The position numbers and the translations under genes were made by a program. From NCBI GenBank assembly GCA_963821385.1, contig CAWGDK010000008.1:155909-219908 (forward strand): DNA of 64,000 nt, read 5' to 3'. This DNA comes from an uncultured Gemmatimonadales bacterium. GTDB taxonomy: Bacteria; Gemmatimonadota; Gemmatimonadetes; Gemmatimonadales; GWC2-71-9. Below the pieces are notes generated by a model. It searched no databases. It was not told the origin of the DNA and saw only the letters and a program-made list of their open reading frames with translations. Positions 59,200 through 64,000 of this stretch are shown in pieces (the stretch's first letter is position 1; each line of letters starts with the position of its first letter).

Positions 59200-60546
59200 A
59201 TGATTCTCACCGCTCCCATGCTCGCGGCGCTCCTGGTGCAAGGACCGCTGTCGTCCACACCCACCCGACCGCTGGGCACGCTGCGCGAGCAGGCGGCGGT
59301 GCAGCAGGAGTGGCTGCGCTACCGGCTCGACTCCGTGCTGCCGCGCCTGATGCGGCAGTATCACGTCCAGATGTGGGTAGTGCCGATGCGGGAGTACAAC
59401 GAGGACCCGGTGTTCTGGTCGCTCGTGTCGGCCACCACGTTCGCCGCGCGGCGGCGCACCATCTACGTCTTCTTTGACCGGGGACCCGACCGCGGCATCG
59501 AGCGCCTGGCGCTGGGCGGCAGCTCGCAGGGCGGGCTGTACCAGACCTCGTTCGCGAACGACACGATCGATCCCACCATCGGCCGCCGCCCCGAGCTGGT
59601 GGGCCAGGGACAATGGGATCTGCTGCGCCGCGTGATCGAGCAGCGCGACCCGCTATCGATCGCGGTGGACATCTCCCATACGCACGCGTTTTCGGACGGG
59701 CTGTCGGCGGGCGAATGGGAGCAGCTCCAGACGGCGCTGCCGCCGGCGTACCTCGGCCGCCTGGTGCGCGCCGAGAACCTGGCGCTCGACTATCAGTCGA
59801 TCCGCGCCCCGGCCATGCTGCCCGTGTACAAGCGGATGCAGGAGGTGGTGTGGGCGGTCATCGACACCGCCTTCTCGAGCCGGGTGATCAAACCCGGTCG
59901 CACCACGACCGACGACGTGGAGTGGTGGATGCGCCAGCGCGTCAACGACCTCGGCTTCGGCACCTGGTTCCACACCGACGTCGACGTGCAGCGGCGCGGA
60001 ATCGATCTCTCGGATTCGGGGTCGGTCGTGATTCAACGCGGCGACGTGCTCCATTGCGACTTCGGGCTCACCGCCCTCGGCCTCAACACCGACACGCAGC
60101 ACATGGGCTACGTGCTGCGCTCCGGCGAGCGTGACGTGCCCGACGGCCTCAAGGTGGCGCTCGCCAACTCGAACCGGCTGCAGGATCTGCTGCTGGCGGA
60201 AATGAAACCGGGTCGCAGCGGCAACGAGGTGCTCGCGGCCGCGCGCGCGGCGATGCAGGCGGCGGGGATCAACGGCACGATCTACACGCACCCGATCGGC
60301 GACCGCGGCCATGGCGCGGGCCCATTGATCGGGTTGTGGGATCACCAGGAGGGCGTCCCGGGCCGCGGCGACGTCCCACTGTTGCCGTCGACCTGGTTCT
60401 CGATCGAGCTGCAGGCGACGACCCCGCTGCCGGAATGGACCAACCAGCCGCTGCGTTCAGCACAGGAAGAGGACGCCGAGCTGGATGCCGACGGGGCGAT
60501 GCACTGGGTGCTGCGCCGCCAGACGACCTGGCACCTGGTGCGGTGA
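59200..60546 (+). CDS. M24 family Xaa-Pro aminopeptidase (secreted)
   Basis: GDVLHCDFG, NTDTQH, THPIGDRGHGAGP, SIE, EED metal ligands. Confidence 0.88.
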   Translation: MILTAPMLAALLVQGPLSSTPTRPLGTLREQAAVQQEWLRYRLDSVLPRLMRQYHVQMWVVPMREYNEDPVFWSLVSATTFAARRRTIYVFFDRGPDRGIERLALGGSSQGGLYQTSFANDTIDPTIGRRPELVGQGQWDLLRRVIEQRDPLSIAVDISHTHAFSDGLSAGEWEQLQTALPPAYLGRLVRAENLALDYQSIRAPAMLPVYKRMQEVVWAVIDTAFSSRVIKPGRTTTDDVEWWMRQRVNDLGFGTWFHTDVDVQRRGIDLSDSGSVVIQRGDVLHCDFGLTALGLNTDTQHMGYVLRSGERDVPDGLKVALANSNRLQDLLLAEMKPGRSGNEVLAAARAAMQAAGINGTIYTHPIGDRGHGAGPLIGLWDHQEGVPGRGDVPLLPSTWFSIELQATTPLPEWTNQPLRSAQEEDAELDADGAMHWVLRRQTTWHLVR

Positions 60547-60590
60547 AGGAAATCGCACGGAGTAGGAGCGGAGCCATCGCCCGGACCCGT

Positions 60591-60635
60591 CGGCTAAAGC
60601 CGCGGCTCGGCGAAACGACGCGTCCTGAAGGACGC
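60591..60635 (+). repeat. Solo diverged REP-like palindrome related to the transposase-flanking units
   Basis: CGGCTAAAGCCGCGGCTCGGC matches CGGCTGAAGCCGCGTCTCGGC (minus strand, 63412-63432) at 19/21 and is followed by the hairpin GCGTCC-TGAA-GGACGC. Confidence 0.55.
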
Positions 60636-60637
60636 AA

Positions 60638-61726
60638 GTGAAACGCACGACCATGATCGAGACGCCCGCGCTCCTGCTGCATCTCGACGTGGTGGAGCGC
60701 AATCTCGAGCGCATGGCGGCTAGGGCTCGTCGGCTGGGCGTGGTGCTGCGACCCCACGCCAAGACGCATAAGTGCCCCGAGCTGGGCCGGCGCCAGCTCG
60801 CACACGGCGCGGTCGGGCTCACCGTGGCGACGCTGGCCGAAGCCGAGGCGTTCGCCGCCGCCGGGTTCTCCGACCTGACGTGGGCGTTCCCGATCGATCC
60901 CACCCACATCCCGCACGCTCGTCGCGTCGCCCGGCGCACGACGCTGCGCGTCGTCACAGACGACCTCGCCACGGCGCGGGCGCTCGCAGGATCGGGCTTG
61001 CATGTCTGGCTGAAAGTGGACTGCGGCTATCATCGCGCCGGCGTCGATCCGTCCTCACCCTATGCCGTCGAGGTCGCGCGCGAGCTGGCACGTGAGGACG
61101 GACTCGTGTTCGACGGCCTGCTGTCCCACTCGGGGCACGCGTACAAGACCCACAACCAGACCGAGGCCGCGCAGATCGCCGAACAGGAACGATTGTCCCT
61201 GGTGCGCTTCGCGCAACGGTTGCGCGCGGTGGGCATCGTCGCGCGCGGCGTGAGCGTCGGCTCGACACCGGCGATGATGGCGGCGAACGACCTGACCGGC
61301 GTCACCGAGGCGCGTCCCGGCAATTACGTGTTCTTCGACCGGACCATGGTGTTGATCGGGGTGTGCGCGCCGCAGGACGTGGGCGTCAGCGTGCTCGCCA
61401 CCGTCGTGTCGCATCAGGAAGGCCGCGGGCACCTCGTGGTCGACGCCGGCGCGCTGGCCCTGTCCAAAGACACGGGACCGGCGCATATCCATGTCCCGGC
61501 GTCCTTCGGCGCGGTGCGCGGGCATCCGTCGCTCGGCATCGCGTCGCTGTCGCAGGAGCACGGGGTGGTGCGCGGGCCCGCTGACGTCCTGAGCACATTC
61601 AAGGTCGGCGACCGGATGGAGATCGTCCCCAATCATTCCTGTCTCACGGTCGCCCACTACGACCACTATCACGTGATGCGCGACGGCCGGGAGCTGGACC
61701 GGTGGCGTATCGAACGCGGGAGGTGA
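60638..61726 (+). CDS. Alanine racemase-fold PLP enzyme (D-threonine aldolase / D-serine dehydratase DSD1 family)
   Basis: IETPALLL, LRPHAKTHK, KVDCGYHRAGV, VSVGSTP, EARPGNYVFFD, LSQEHG, PNHSCLT. Confidence 0.9.
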   Translation: MKRTTMIETPALLLHLDVVERNLERMAARARRLGVVLRPHAKTHKCPELGRRQLAHGAVGLTVATLAEAEAFAAAGFSDLTWAFPIDPTHIPHARRVARRTTLRVVTDDLATARALAGSGLHVWLKVDCGYHRAGVDPSSPYAVEVARELAREDGLVFDGLLSHSGHAYKTHNQTEAAQIAEQERLSLVRFAQRLRAVGIVARGVSVGSTPAMMAANDLTGVTEARPGNYVFFDRTMVLIGVCAPQDVGVSVLATVVSHQEGRGHLVVDAGALALSKDTGPAHIHVPASFGAVRGHPSLGIASLSQEHGVVRGPADVLSTFKVGDRMEIVPNHSCLTVAHYDHYHVMRDGRELDRWRIERGR

Positions 61727-61729
61727 CGA

Positions 61730-62026
61730 ATGACCCGCCTGGTGGCGAGACATGTGACGCTGAGCCTGCTGCCGGTGGTGATCGGCGTCGCAGCGGGCGC
61801 CGTTTTCGCGTCGCGGCAGCAAACCTGTGGCTCGCTCGTCGGCCCACTGTTTGCAGCCAAGTGTGGGCGGATGCTGGTGCAGTATCAGCTGTGGATCCAG
61901 ACCGGGGTCACGGTGGCCCTGGCGGTGCTGGCGACGATGGTGGGGATTTGGATGGAGCGGCGAAAGAATAGAAGAGTCGTGGAGAAGAAGTTGGATAGTG
62001 AAGTGGGGGGCAGCCCTACCGCCTAG
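61730..62026 (+). CDS. Small hypothetical membrane protein
   Basis: GGAGG RBS; two TM segments flanking a C-x10-C loop. Confidence 0.55.
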   Translation: MTRLVARHVTLSLLPVVIGVAAGAVFASRQQTCGSLVGPLFAAKCGRMLVQYQLWIQTGVTVALAVLATMVGIWMERRKNRRVVEKKLDSEVGGSPTA

Positions 62027-62058
62027 CCCCTCCGACCTTTCACCTATATTGACGCCCC

Positions 62059-62421
62059 ATGGATTTAGCGCAGCACGTTGCCGCGAATCTCGAGATCTCC
62101 GCTTCCGTTGCCGAGCGGGGCGTTGGGGCCATCCTCAATGCCGTGCGGATGGTCGTGCCGCGCGACACGTTCGAGCGCGTCAAGGGAGTCGTGCCCGACG
62201 CCGAGAGCTACATGGGGCGGGCACTGATGAGCGCGGCGCGCACCGGGGAGATGCCGGGCCCCACCGGGCCCTCGGGGTTGATGCGCGCGCTGATGACGGC
62301 CGGGATCAAGCACGAGGACATGCCGCGCCTGGGACGGATCGTGCTCGAATACCTGCGACCGGTGATGGGCGAGCAGTCAGTGGAGCATTTTCTCGCGGTG
62401 GCCCCGGCGTTGCGAGACTAG
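62059..62421 (+). CDS. Hypothetical helical protein (DUF2780-like)
   Basis: 120-aa ORF; AERGVGAIL..V....F..V...VPDA pattern. Confidence 0.55.
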   Translation: MDLAQHVAANLEISASVAERGVGAILNAVRMVVPRDTFERVKGVVPDAESYMGRALMSAARTGEMPGPTGPSGLMRALMTAGIKHEDMPRLGRIVLEYLRPVMGEQSVEHFLAVAPALRD

Positions 62422-62451
62422 AATCCAGGGATTGAGAAGAGTGAAGGAGTT

Positions 62452-62794
62452 GTCACCATCGGTGACAGTTCAGCCGAGACGCGGCTCTCAGCCGCGGACA
62501 ACAACGTGACGGTGGTCGTTTTTCGCGGCTAATAGCGCTAAAGCACTTCCTTCGGTCGCCGCACTCGGCTATCTGTCGCTTAGAGCGACGGCGCCGGTCA
62601 CCATCGGTGACCGTTCAGCCGAGACGCGGCTCTCAGGTGCGGACAACAACGTGACGGTGGTCGTTTTTCGCGGCTAATAGCGCTAAAGCACTTCCTTCGG
62701 TCGCCGCACTCGGCTATCTGTCGCTTAGAGCGACGGCGCCGGTCACCATCGGTGACAGTTCAGCCGAGACGCGGCTCTCAGCCGCGGACAACAA
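62452..62794. repeat. 145-bp tandem repeat (2.4 copies) of multi-hairpin REP/BIME-like units
   Basis: Units start at 62452, 62597 and 62742; only 3 mismatches (all in unit 2); hairpins GTCACC-ATC-GGTGAC, CGCGGCT-CTC-AGCCGCG and GTCGCT-TAG-AGCGAC. Confidence 0.95.
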
Positions 62795-63221
62795 TCGTCG
62801 TCGCGCTCTCCTCCCCGGTTTCCATCCCCCACTGCCATCCCGCTATCGCCTCCTTAGGATGGTGCCTCGCCTGGTCGCACACATATGCCCGCGCGGCACC
62901 AAGCGCCTTCGGACTCACCGATTCGACGTTGTAACCCTTGGCCCAGCGCAGCGGTCGGGTTGTTGCGTGCCCCTCTCGGTTCGCAAGGGTCGCACTACCT
63001 CCCTTCAGCCGCTGCAATAGTCTCGAGATGCTCGTGGTGGGATGGAGCTGCAGCAACAGGTGAACGTGAGTCTGGACGATCCCCAACGCGTGGAGACCGG
63101 ATCGCTCTTGTTGCGCAACGGCAGGGAGATACCGGGCCAGAAACGTGGCGACGCGGGCGTCGATCGTCGGTAGCCGCCCGCGGGTGGTCCAGACGATGTG
63201 GACGTAGAGACGATCGCGCAT
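62778..63221 (-). mobile_element. tnpA: IS200/IS605-type Y1 HUH transposase TnpA, probably REP-associated (RAYT-like); no tnpB
   Basis: LYVHIVWTTRGR, THVHLL (HUH), LKGGS, WAKGY..SVS, AYVCDQARHH (catalytic Tyr helix). Confidence 0.9.
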
Positions 63222-63311
63222 CGACGGGAACCTGGAGCGCGGCGGCCAAACGACATAGCCAAAACATGGCGCAAAGGGCCTGAATATTTCGCGTCTGATT
63301 CACGCGTCGCC

Positions 63312-63434
63312 TTTCGCGGCTGATAGCGCTAAAGCACTTCCTGCGGTCGCCGCACTCGGCTGGACTGTCACTGAGAGTGACGGAGCACCGCGTCGCTTTA
63401 TGCGACAGATAGCCGAGACGCGGCTTCAGCCGCG
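63312..63434. repeat. Upstream copy of the REP/BIME-like unit with an inverted core
   Basis: Arms match the downstream units in direct orientation; the core 63362-63410 matches their core only as reverse complement. Confidence 0.9.
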
Positions 63435-63566
63435 ACCAACGGAGCGCGACAAGCGGGTTTTTGTGACGTGATCTATCCCGTGAGCCCTTTCCCCCTAGAT
63501 TCCCCCTCCCATGGCACACCCCTTGCCCGAACCACTCGATACATGCCCCACAGCCCTGAATCGTCG

Positions 63567-64000
63567 ATGACGGTCGCCATCGAACCCGCCCGCCCGGCGG
63601 ACCTGCCGTCGATCGTGTCGCTGCTCGAACGCGGCCATCTGCCGCTTGCCGGCATCGAGGCGCACGTCGAGGCCGCGCTCGTGGCGCGGGAGGGGGCGCG
63701 CATCGTGGGGTGCGCGGCCGTCGAGCTGTACGACGACGCGGGGCTGCTGCGCTCGGTGGCGGTCGATCCTTCCTCCAGAGGTCAGGGACTGGGGATCAGG
63801 CTGACGGAAGCCGCGTTGGCGCTGGCGCGCCAGCGGGGCGCCCAGACGATGTACCTGCTCACCGAAACCGCCCTGGAGTTTTTTCCCCGGTTCGGATTCC
63901 GCGCCATTGCGCGCGACCAGGTGGCCACGGCGGTGCGGCAGTCGGCCGAATTCACGGGTGCCTGCCCCGACACGGCCCAAGCCATGATGGCGGAGTTGTA
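63567..64000 (+). CDS. arsN2: GNAT N-acetyltransferase, ArsN2-like (stop codon cut by window edge)
   Basis: Not in the ORF track; translates MTVAIEPARPADL...GLLRSVAVDPSSRGQGLG...YLLTETA..FF.RFGF...SAEFTGACPDTAQAM. Confidence 0.8.
   Translation, partial: MTVAIEPARPADLPSIVSLLERGHLPLAGIEAHVEAALVAREGARIVGCAAVELYDDAGLLRSVAVDPSSRGQGLGIRLTEAALALARQRGAQTMYLLTETALEFFPRFGFRAIARDQVATAVRQSAEFTGACPDTAQAMMAEL

What the first reader, a model, noticed from the sequence alone, without database searches (positions are those of the whole stretch)
63355..63417. Invertible core inside the repeat unit, with a compensatory base-pair change
Seen: every full unit reads arm A-CTCGGCT-[core]-AGCCGAG-arm B. The downstream cores (62571-62616, 62716-62761) are ATCTGTCGCTTAGAGCGACGGCGCCGGTCACCATCGGTGAC(A/C)GTTC. 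The upstream core (63362-63410) matches only as reverse complement, ATCTGTCGCATAAAGCGACGCGGTGCTCCGTCACTCTCAGTGACAGTCC, while the arms keep their orientation. Stems are conserved and loops differ, and GTCACC/GGTGAC becomes GTCACT/AGTGAC (C:G to T:A). Inference: secondary structure is under selection, and the core has flipped between 7-bp inverted repeats, possibly through TnpA strand transfer or template switching.
Basis: partly seen in the sequence, partly recalled or inferred. Interest (0 to 1): 0.7.

Follow-up and report, generated by a model that had tools for sequence, protein, structure and literature searches.

The report
Flipping hairpin doublets beside a transposase
The repeat is a pair of DNA hairpin modules beside a small single-strand-DNA transposase gene, and related genomes carry its middle in opposite orientations at the same chromosomal sites, likely a slow by-product of the transposase's cutting and rejoining rather than a gene switch.

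Summary
The core also aligns directly (32 vs 38 matches), because it is two related hairpins facing each other. The two "arms" are one outer hairpin, with or without a 22-nt insert. Each unit is therefore a nested inverted doublet (REP/BIME-like) beside a Y1 HUH transposase (62778-63221, minus strand) with the IS200-side subclass-1.2 motif Y---Q--HH and dN/dS 0.05-0.18.

Of 77 doublets collected, almost all from the genus, 76 pair hairpin type A with type B, which marks their orientation. At 3 of about 13 sites shared between genomes the A/B order is reversed, including this site, which needs at least three reversals on a gyrA tree. Switch points differ between events: the outer hairpins, the 7-bp repeat, or a 5-bp repeat further in. 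The compensatory pair is confirmed (67 T-A, 40 C-G, 3 other).

So reversal is real but evolutionary and not confined to the 7-bp repeats. No sign of a regulated switch was found. Transposase-initiated cut-and-rejoin is my preferred mechanism (about 0.55), template switching the main rival; neither is shown. Verdict: new variant of the REP/BIME-RAYT kind.

The parts
62778..63221 (-). Y1 (HUH) transposase TnpA, 147 aa; HuH = THVH, Y motif YVCDQARHH; its stop codon (62778-62780) lies inside the outer hairpin of the adjacent doublet
   Evidence: PF01797, 70.3 bits; NF033573 65.7 > cut-off 55; NF047646 24.7 < cut-off 80
63315..63434 (+). Upstream doublet U: outer hairpin with insert, 7-bp repeat, linker, hairpin B, spacer, hairpin A, linker, 7-bp repeat, intact outer hairpin
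63315..63354 (+). U left outer hairpin ('arm A'), interrupted by the insert
63328..63349 (+). 22-nt insert, an optional micro-module found on the A side or the B side of doublets and in unrelated hairpins
63355..63361 (+). 7-bp repeat CTCGGCT (left), pairs with 63411-63417 to close a three-way junction in predicted folds
63367..63381 (+). Inner hairpin type B of U (preceded by 5-nt linker 63362-63366)
63382..63391 (+). Variable spacer of U; shares a 7-nt stretch in reverse with the orthologous spacer in G418
63392..63406 (+). Inner hairpin type A of U (followed by 4-nt linker 63407-63410)
63411..63417 (+). 7-bp repeat AGCCGAG (right); its last four bases lie 1 nt 5' of the outer hairpin, the place of a guide tetranucleotide (inferred)
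   Evidence: analogy to PMC8266576
63419..63434 (+). U right outer hairpin ('arm B'), intact
62669..62786 (+). Downstream doublet D2: insert-bearing outer hairpin, hairpin A (62720-62734), spacer, hairpin B (62742-62756), intact outer hairpin (62770-62786)
62524..62641 (+). Downstream doublet D1, tandem copy of D2 (period 145); right outer hairpin and one linker degenerate
62452..62496 (+). Partial unit: a single B module; similarity begins exactly at the foot of hairpin B

Best explanation
The unit is a REP/BIME-like doublet of two inverted two-hairpin modules beside a Y1 transposase gene, and its segments lie in opposite orientations at the same sites in related genomes, likely because the transposase nicks and rejoins the folded single strand at nested repeats.

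Shown: each module is outer hairpin - 1 nt - CTCGGCT - linker - inner hairpin. Doublets join an A module to a B module head to head across a 0-30 nt spacer. They persist at orthologous sites across species, amplify in tandem next to tnpA, and have been reversed at three nested boundaries (outer hairpins; 7-bp repeat; the CTGTC/GACAG repeat at the hairpin feet).

Inferred: on exposed single-stranded DNA TnpA would bind the outer hairpin, use the CGAG just 5' of it as a guide, and cut at C|T dinucleotides that the opposite module brings close through the 7-bp stem. Strand transfer, or repair primed from the nick, would then rejoin segments in either orientation or copy them between units. The events are rare (a few per site over the age of the genus), so this would be turnover of a non-autonomous element, not a regulatory switch. 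The strict A+B, unlike-linker pairing likely keeps the doublet from becoming one long perfect palindrome.
For: tnpA is adjacent, intact and under purifying selection (dN/dS 0.05-0.18 in 11 of 11 comparisons with G000). HuH, W and the Y---Q motif are conserved in 120 homologs. All 11 genus genomes with a homolog at 70% or more identity have one such copy and at least 4 module matches. Related modules with the same CTCGGC/GCCGAG motif but other inner hairpins flank tnpA homologs down to about 50% identity.

Reversal: both-flank orthology shows opposite A/B order at 3 of about 13 shared sites (grouped by eye). The tnpA-upstream site shows all four linker-by-hairpin states and needs at least 3 changes on the gyrA tree (counted by hand). 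At site 3 the block-only model wins clearly (158-162 vs 142-143 for the next model) and the 6-nt loop travels with hairpin A.

137 of 154 linkers end in CT, and the 7-bp repeat begins and ends in CT; TnpA-REP enzymes cut at C|T guided by the last two bases of a tetranucleotide 5' of the hairpin (PMC8266576, passages) and recombine and amplify BIMEs in vitro (PMC3333891, passages). No homogenised doublets in the genus set: identical linkers 0 of 77 vs 6.5 expected by permutation, A+B in 76 of 77.
Against: No biochemistry exists for this TnpA group in the papers I read, so the guide and cut site are analogy only. The switch points are also simply the tracts where the two modules are identical, so any homology-driven process would use them. 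None of the four site-3 contigs carries a listed tnpA match, so the enzyme would have to act in trans. Seven genomes (66-93% complete) have 3 or more modules but no close tnpA found. Vertical inheritance of tnpA is only partly shown: synteny in 7 genomes and one shared clade, but Mantel rho 0.11, p 0.22 against gyrA, and a second tnpA clade sits at another locus. Doublets are related by descent, so the permutation P values overstate. One doublet outside the genus (L200) has identical linkers (1 of 4 doublets seen). Units on either side of tnpA are homogenised within some genomes (G405, G413), so some apparent flips may be replacement by another copy.
Confidence: 0.55

Rival explanations
1. Same element, but the reversals are TnpA-independent replication template switches between the nested inverted repeats; the same process would also create the paired (compensatory) changes.
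For: Template switching between short inverted repeats inverts the spacer and can fix stem pairing in one step (PMC8604942, passages; PMC8794818, abstract). Every switch point found lies in a tract shared by the two modules. Site 3 has no tnpA match on its contigs.
Against: The same mechanism homogenises the arms (PMC8604942), yet 0 of 77 doublets have identical linkers and 76 of 77 stay A+B, which would need strong purging. In that yeast study spacer inversions needed arms over 9 bp and changed 2-5 bp, whereas here 30-50 bp segments switch at 5-7 bp perfect tracts (inside longer imperfect repeats); that study was limited to coding DNA.
Confidence: 0.25
2. No segment turns round in place: oppositely oriented copies elsewhere in the genome overwrite or replace part of the resident doublet (gene conversion or excision and re-insertion), giving mosaics that look like inversions.
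For: Units on both sides of tnpA are near-identical within G405 and within G413. The insert-bearing arm is joined to A, to B and to unrelated sequence. Loops and linkers are shared between A and B modules. A second U-type unit exists at G000:C8:229770.
Against: At site 3 the arms and both linkers stay in place while the hairpin block with its own loops is reversed. The site-specific spacer of U is shared in reverse with its G418 ortholog. New linker-hairpin combinations must first arise by a reversal-like exchange somewhere.
Confidence: 0.12
3. The unit is a transcribed, structured RNA element (mRNA-stabilising or regulatory) and the covariation reflects selection on RNA.
For: Stable predicted folds (z -2.5 to -4.1 with DNA parameters); covariation in three stems; REP dimers are proposed to act at RNA level in other bacteria (PMC3733652, passages).
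Against: Both orientations persist at the same site. Units sit in convergent (D) and divergent (U) gene contexts. No Rfam match at E up to 1 and no terminator-like site. The insert varies at the middle base of a G-N-A triloop (GAA, GCA, GGA, GTA), a loop reported as very stable in DNA (PMC3201870, abstract start in listing).
Confidence: 0.05
4. A programmed invertible switch (phase variation) flipped by a site-specific recombinase between the 7-bp repeats.
For: The pairwise U-vs-D comparison is best fitted by reversal between the 7-bp repeats; U lies between two divergent genes, tnpA and arsN2.
Against: Switch points differ between events. Outer-stem type still tracks the A or B side (50 of 65 vs 24 of 68), so segments are far from randomised. 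No sigma-70-like site in 62400-63600 (a weak test). The two tyrosine recombinases of G000 lie on other contigs; serine recombinases were not searched.
Confidence: 0.03

Closest known systems
REPtrons and BIMEs of Escherichia coli (TnpA-REP / RAYT with y, z1, z2 REPs; PMC3333891, passages)
   Same: Single Y1 transposase gene at a conserved chromosomal place, bordered by inverted REP doublets made of two unlike REPs, with variable linkers, tandem amplification and chimeric units; copies also away from the gene.
   Different: No GT(A/G)G foot; each module has two hairpins plus a 7-bp closing stem; about 8 doublets per genome instead of hundreds; TnpA lacks the class-2 Y---NP motif (0 of 120 homologs). 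The passages I saw mention inversion only for the whole chromosomal region.
TnpA-Y1 subclass 1.2 (Quentin et al. 2018, PMC6006769, sections 6, 12 and part 1 of 15)
   Same: Y---Q--HH signature, length 147 vs median 148, low copy number, close to IS200 TnpA by profile.
   Different: Described as mostly Cyanobacteria and Bacteroidetes and generally without terminal structures or REPs; here in Gemmatimonadales relatives and with a cognate repeat family. THVH and WA replace DH[IV]H and WQ.
IS200 'Group 3', the RAYT-like IS200 group (Bertels et al. 2017, PMC5581495, passages)
   Same: IS200-family protein without near-identical duplicates but with repeated flanking words.
   Different: The passages give no repeat anatomy or taxa for the group; membership not tested.
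REP heterodimers and double-inverted-repeat TIRs (Di Nocera et al. 2013, PMC3733652, passages)
   Same: Preference for heterodimers, suggested there to protect against SbcCD-type clearance; compound repeats flanking tyrosine transposases.
   Different: No GTAG or CGTC tag identified here; 'Gemmat' does not occur in the main text; supplements not read.
Spacer inversion by template switching between short inverted repeats (PMC8604942, passages; PMC8794818, abstract)
   Same: Reversal of a segment between inverted repeats; paired changes in one step.
   Different: Longer segments, several nested boundaries, and no arm homogenisation here.

Membership tests
REPtron / BIME (TnpA-REP, class 2) | Adjacent Y1 transposase with HuH and catalytic Tyr | tested here: met
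REPtron / BIME (TnpA-REP, class 2) | Class-2 Y---NP motif / REP_Tyr_transpos model | tested here: not met
   0 of 120 homologs; NF047646 24.7 vs cut-off 80
REPtron / BIME (TnpA-REP, class 2) | 5' GT(A/G)G tetranucleotide at the hairpin foot | tested here: not met
   read by eye on the 77 doublets: the outer hairpin is preceded by CGAG plus 1 nt on one strand and a T-rich run on the other
REPtron / BIME (TnpA-REP, class 2) | Inverted doublets of unlike repeats with variable spacer | tested here: met
   76 of 77 A+B; spacer 0-30 nt
REPtron / BIME (TnpA-REP, class 2) | Tandem amplification at single loci | tested here: met
   G000 (145 nt), G418, G289, G405, G402
REPtron / BIME (TnpA-REP, class 2) | Single-copy gene, vertically kept at one locus | tested here: inconclusive
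   one close copy in each of 11 of 24 genomes; shared neighbours in 7; second clade elsewhere and Mantel p 0.22
REPtron / BIME (TnpA-REP, class 2) | High genomic copy number of the repeat | tested here: not met
   8 doublets and 18 module matches in G000, 79% complete
REPtron / BIME (TnpA-REP, class 2) | TnpA cleaves and recombines the cognate single-stranded repeat | not testable with these tools
   needs a cleavage and strand-transfer assay
TnpA-Y1 subclass 1.2 | Y---Q--HH motif | tested here: met
   query YVCDQARHH; 70 of 120 homologs exact, 111 of 120 with H or R at the first H
TnpA-Y1 subclass 1.2 | DH[IV]H and WQ motifs | tested here: not met
   T before HuH in 111 of 120, WA in 105 of 120
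TnpA-Y1 subclass 1.2 | Short protein, low copy number, divergent paralogs | tested here: met
   147 aa; 3 Y1 genes in G000, paralogs 47% and 30% identical
TnpA-Y1 subclass 1.2 | Generally no flanking terminal structures or REPs; mostly Cyanobacteria and Bacteroidetes | tested here: not met
   repeats flank all 11 close homologs; relatives titled Gemmatimonadales
TnpA-Y1 subclass 1.2 | Clusters with the published subclass in its network or tree | not tested
   reference set and supplements of PMC6006769 not fetched
IS200/IS605 insertion sequence (subclass 1.1) | TnpA-IS200 profile above cut-off | tested here: met
   NF033573 65.7 vs 55
IS200/IS605 insertion sequence (subclass 1.1) | Several near-identical copies per genome; often a tnpB neighbour | tested here: not met
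   one copy; neighbours are a DUF2780-like gene and arsN2
TIRtron / TIRYT (subclass 2.1) | C-terminal HTH extension and GGGG-type terminal inverted repeats | tested here: not met
   147 aa with Y1_Tnp only; repeat motif differs
Phase-variable invertible switch | Fixed pair of recombination sites | tested here: not met
   best-fitting switch points differ between events
Phase-variable invertible switch | Cognate invertase nearby | tested here: inconclusive
   two tyrosine recombinases on other contigs; serine recombinases not searched
Phase-variable invertible switch | Both orientations in one population | not testable with these tools
   only contigs of low depth were served
Known structured RNA family | Rfam match | tested here: not met
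   0 matches at E up to 1 in 60400-64000

The most novel reading that the evidence does not exclude
An IS200-side (subclass-1.2-like) Y1 transposase, so far thought to lack cognate repeats, has its own GTAG-less REP system in which a natural 7-nt guide (AGCCGAG) beside the bound hairpin pairs with the cut site (CTCGGCT) of the facing module, so that one HUH enzyme acting on single strands inverts and reshuffles nested segments of its own substrate: a miniature, DNA-guided inversion system and an independent or ancestral case of transposase domestication.
Probability: 0.2. Interest if true: 0.7.

Novelty: new variant of a known kind. Interest (0 to 1): 0.42.

Why it matters
How REPs and BIMEs diversify and move, and why their doublets are usually made of unlike halves, are open questions (PMC3333891, PMC3733652). 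Here the A/B asymmetry, the unlike linkers and an optional insert act as built-in orientation markers, so rearrangements can be read directly at orthologous sites; they show repeated reversals at nested boundaries. The system also gives a cognate substrate, a predicted guide and predicted cut sites for a TnpA group described as having no repeats, which makes a standard cleavage and strand-transfer assay possible. If the 7-bp stem is a natural extended guide, it bears on DNA-guided retargeting of HUH transposases. If the reversals are template switches, it is a tidy but modest example of palindrome instability.

Tried and rejected
Reads: no RNA holder was listed for 62050-63900, so expression is untested. 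Seven distinct runs were laid, all low-depth contigs; none showed the opposite orientation at this locus, but contigs drop rare variants, so this is not evidence of absence. The one opposite-strand joint (62452/63391, run X1) has unlike flanks and is read as another doublet copy, not a flip here.

Insert-bearing arm as a wide marker: only G000 among 401 order-level genomes and 6 metagenome stretches matched the exact pattern; variants were found later.

Empty-site comparison: G289, G415, G402 and G403 lack tnpA between the DUF2780-like gene and arsN2, and G379 lacks it upstream of arsN2, but the intergenic DNA is too diverged to fix element ends or a cut site.

Strand bias of G-T wobbles in outer stems: about 10 vs 3, too few to use. 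tnpA-gyrA congruence was not significant. Rfam, promoter and terminator scans were negative. Four matches in viral contigs were not examined.

Rejected: that U is a recent flip of D (about a fifth of core positions differ; second U-type unit elsewhere); that A and B interconvert by point mutation (loops travel with their hairpin at site 3); that the similarity is chance or only palindrome symmetry.

Literature searches that found no description of this repeat family or of internal reversals of REP doublets: (0 papers with Gemmatimonad + tyrosine transposase + palindromic). The library lacks most subscription papers, and the supplements of PMC6006769 and PMC3733652 (lists of REP-like elements) were not read.

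Full report
Setting. The window is G000:C8:155909-219908. Close relatives of its transposase come from genomes titled Gemmatimonadales. The finding lies between a 147-aa gene on the minus strand (62778-63221) and arsN2. The 147-aa protein is a Y1 HUH transposase: PF01797 70.3 bits, IS200/IS605 model 65.7 against a cut-off of 55, REP-transposase model 24.7 against 80; the nearest solved structures are IS200/IS605 transposases. Its Y motif fits the subclass-1.2 signature Y---Q--HH of Quentin et al. (PMC6006769, sections read): 70 of 120 homologs match exactly, 111 with H or R, and none has the class-2 Y---NP. dN/dS against 11 orthologs is 0.05-0.18.

Checking the observation. The upstream core U aligns to the downstream core D better as reverse complement (38 identities, score 59) than directly (32, score 34); both exceed all 1000 shuffles (max 26). 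So 'only as reverse complement' is too strong: the core holds two related hairpins, A and B, facing each other. Arm A is the reverse complement of arm B with a 22-nt insert. Public-run contigs reproduce U and D as assembled, though they may include the window's source.

What the unit is. The basic module is outer hairpin, 1 nt, CTCGGCT, a 3-5 nt linker, inner hairpin. The module pattern occurs in 22 of 24 genomes of the genus, 18 of them with 3 or more matches, while the read-backwards control gives at most 1 per strand. A stricter pattern occurs in 41 of 201 family genomes, with 1 control hit in all. From G000's contigs and 158 other loci (170 fetched by then, 12 own-genome duplicates dropped; loci chosen around listed matches, a few single matches not fetched) I parsed 77 distinct doublets, 8 of them in G000 and 3 from metagenome contigs. 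76 join an A to a B module and one has a hybrid hairpin, although the parser allowed A+A and B+B. The two linkers are never identical (0 of 77; 6.5 expected by permutation) and 137 of 154 end in CT. Outside the genus most matches in the fetched loci were single modules; the 4 doublets seen were all A+B, one with identical linkers. More distant tnpA homologs carry one module on each side, with the same CTCGGC/GCCGAG motif and other inner hairpins, as does the 47% paralog at G000:C8:224340. Tandem arrays next to tnpA recur in five genomes.

Covariation. The A/B-defining pair is concordant in 152 of 154 modules. Pairs 5-7 of the outer stem are Watson-Crick in 95.4% of cells (138 of 154 arms scored) against 70.6% mean and 74.9% maximum in shuffles, with 7 fully paired stem types. 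Copies are related, so these are not independent events, and template switching can create paired changes without selection (PMC8794818, abstract). Conservation of the fold is nevertheless clear. It does not choose between DNA and RNA; both orientations at one site, and the G-N-A triloop series in the insert, lean to DNA.

Did it flip? The test is orthologous sites. Comparing both flanks of the 77 doublets gave about 13 sites shared by two or more genomes (grouped by eye; one weak). About ten are colinear and three are reversed. Site 1 is U itself, between tnpA and arsN2: A-to-B towards tnpA in G000, G401 and G405, B-to-A in G411, G413 and G418, and in the degenerate unit of G417. All four combinations of linker order and hairpin order occur there, and the U spacer shares 7 nt in reverse with G418's. 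On the gyrA tree this needs at least three changes by hand count, with or without G417. Site 2 (downstream of tnpA) is reversed in G405 against G000, G413 and G417. Site 3, on contigs with no listed tnpA match, is the cleanest: arms and linkers are colinear between G404, G411 and G405, while the hairpin block with its loops is reversed (block model 158-162; next 142-143). Best-fitting switch points vary: 7-bp repeat (G401 vs G411, 108 vs 96), inner 5-bp repeat (site 3), or whole doublet (G413 vs G405 at site 2, 114 vs 90; U vs G418, 114 vs 106). Many margins at site 1 are small, so the switch point for U itself is not fixed. In G410 the tnpA gene is itself inverted against its neighbours, between two outward-facing single modules. 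The insert lies on the A side in 7 doublets and on the B side in 5 (4 flagged, one more seen), on both sides in G000 and in G417.

Rate and role. Outer-stem type still tracks the side (canonical stem 50 of 65 on A, 24 of 68 on B), so reversals are rare relative to sequence drift. No promoter-like or terminator-like site lies in 62400-63600, there is no Rfam match, and the two tyrosine recombinases lie on other contigs. A regulated switch is unlikely. Within some genomes the units flanking tnpA are homogenised, so copying between units also occurs and may account for some apparent flips.

Mechanism. I commit to transposase-initiated rearrangement (0.55), inferred and not shown. TnpA-REP enzymes cut single-stranded REPs at C|T, chosen by a tetranucleotide 5' of the hairpin, and join strands (PMC8266576, passages); the E. 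coli enzyme recombines BIMEs in ways proposed to explain their variability and tandem growth (PMC3333891, passages). Here CGAG stands 1 nt 5' of the outer hairpin, and in the predicted fold it pairs with the facing module's CTCG, next to conserved CT sites. Against this, the same tracts are where the modules are identical, so template switching (0.25; PMC8604942, passages) or replacement by another copy (0.12) would use them too. The absence of homogenised doublets counts against plain template switching unless such products are purged, which is the protection argument made for REP heterodimers (PMC3733652, passages). Vertical inheritance of tnpA is only partly shown: one close copy in each of 11 of 24 genomes and shared neighbours in 7, but a second clade sits elsewhere and the Mantel test against gyrA is not significant (rho 0.11, p 0.22).

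Comparison with the known. It works like a REPtron with BIMEs: unlike halves, variable spacer, tandem growth, low-copy Y1 gene. It is not a member of the class-2 TnpA-REP systems: no GT(A/G)G foot, no Y---NP, low copy number. [quoted passage not shown] Six searches found no description of this repeat family or of internal reversals in REP doublets; supplements were not read and the library is incomplete. An earlier unchecked note from another genome (e1-2292062) describes similar two-hairpin modules around an IS200-like gene.

Verdict. Observation partly confirmed, interpretation partly supported. New variant of a known kind; interest 0.42. The most novel reading, a natural 7-nt DNA guide letting a Y1 transposase invert nested parts of its own substrate, has probability about 0.2 and would merit 0.7.

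Noticed in passing
window 63328-63349, 62682-62703, 62537-62558; L082:1357, L155:8171, L003:8578, L085:2464, L005:8408: The 22-nt insert is itself a portable micro-module: variants sit in the 3' arm of several unrelated hairpin repeats, including modules of the paralog transposase. Its reverse strand carries a C-C-G-N-A-G-G mini-hairpin with all four N seen.
   Followed up: partly
window 60590-60636: A single module of another type (same outer hairpin and CTCGGC motif, different inner hairpin) between the M24-like gene and the D-serine-dehydratase-like gene; the same type flanks the second Y1 gene at G000:C8:224340.
   Followed up: partly
window 62778-62786: The tnpA stop codon lies inside the outer hairpin of the adjacent doublet; in orthologs the C-terminal tail reads into the repeats and ORF length varies from 137 to 177 aa.
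   Followed up: partly
L074 (G410:C371): tnpA is inverted relative to its neighbours compared with G000, with one outward-facing single module left on each side.
   Followed up: partly
G000:C8:216478-231783 (L001) and G000:C3:7822-23517 (L002): Nearly all of the genome's modules cluster in these two regions, mixed with other palindromic repeats, rather than being spread evenly.
   Followed up: no
G000:C2:14305-14670 (L004): A third Y1 gene (30% identical) flanked by a different single palindrome on each side.
   Followed up: no
upstream of tnpA, window about 63296-63307, and orthologs: A short motif is conserved just upstream of the tnpA start in several orthologs (seen by eye); possibly a promoter or protein-binding site.
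   Followed up: no
L243-L246: Four viral contigs match the module pattern; not examined, may be chance or host DNA.
   Followed up: no
L031, L033: Insert-bearing doublets whose two inner hairpins are of other sequence types than A and B, with the usual unlike linkers.
   Followed up: no
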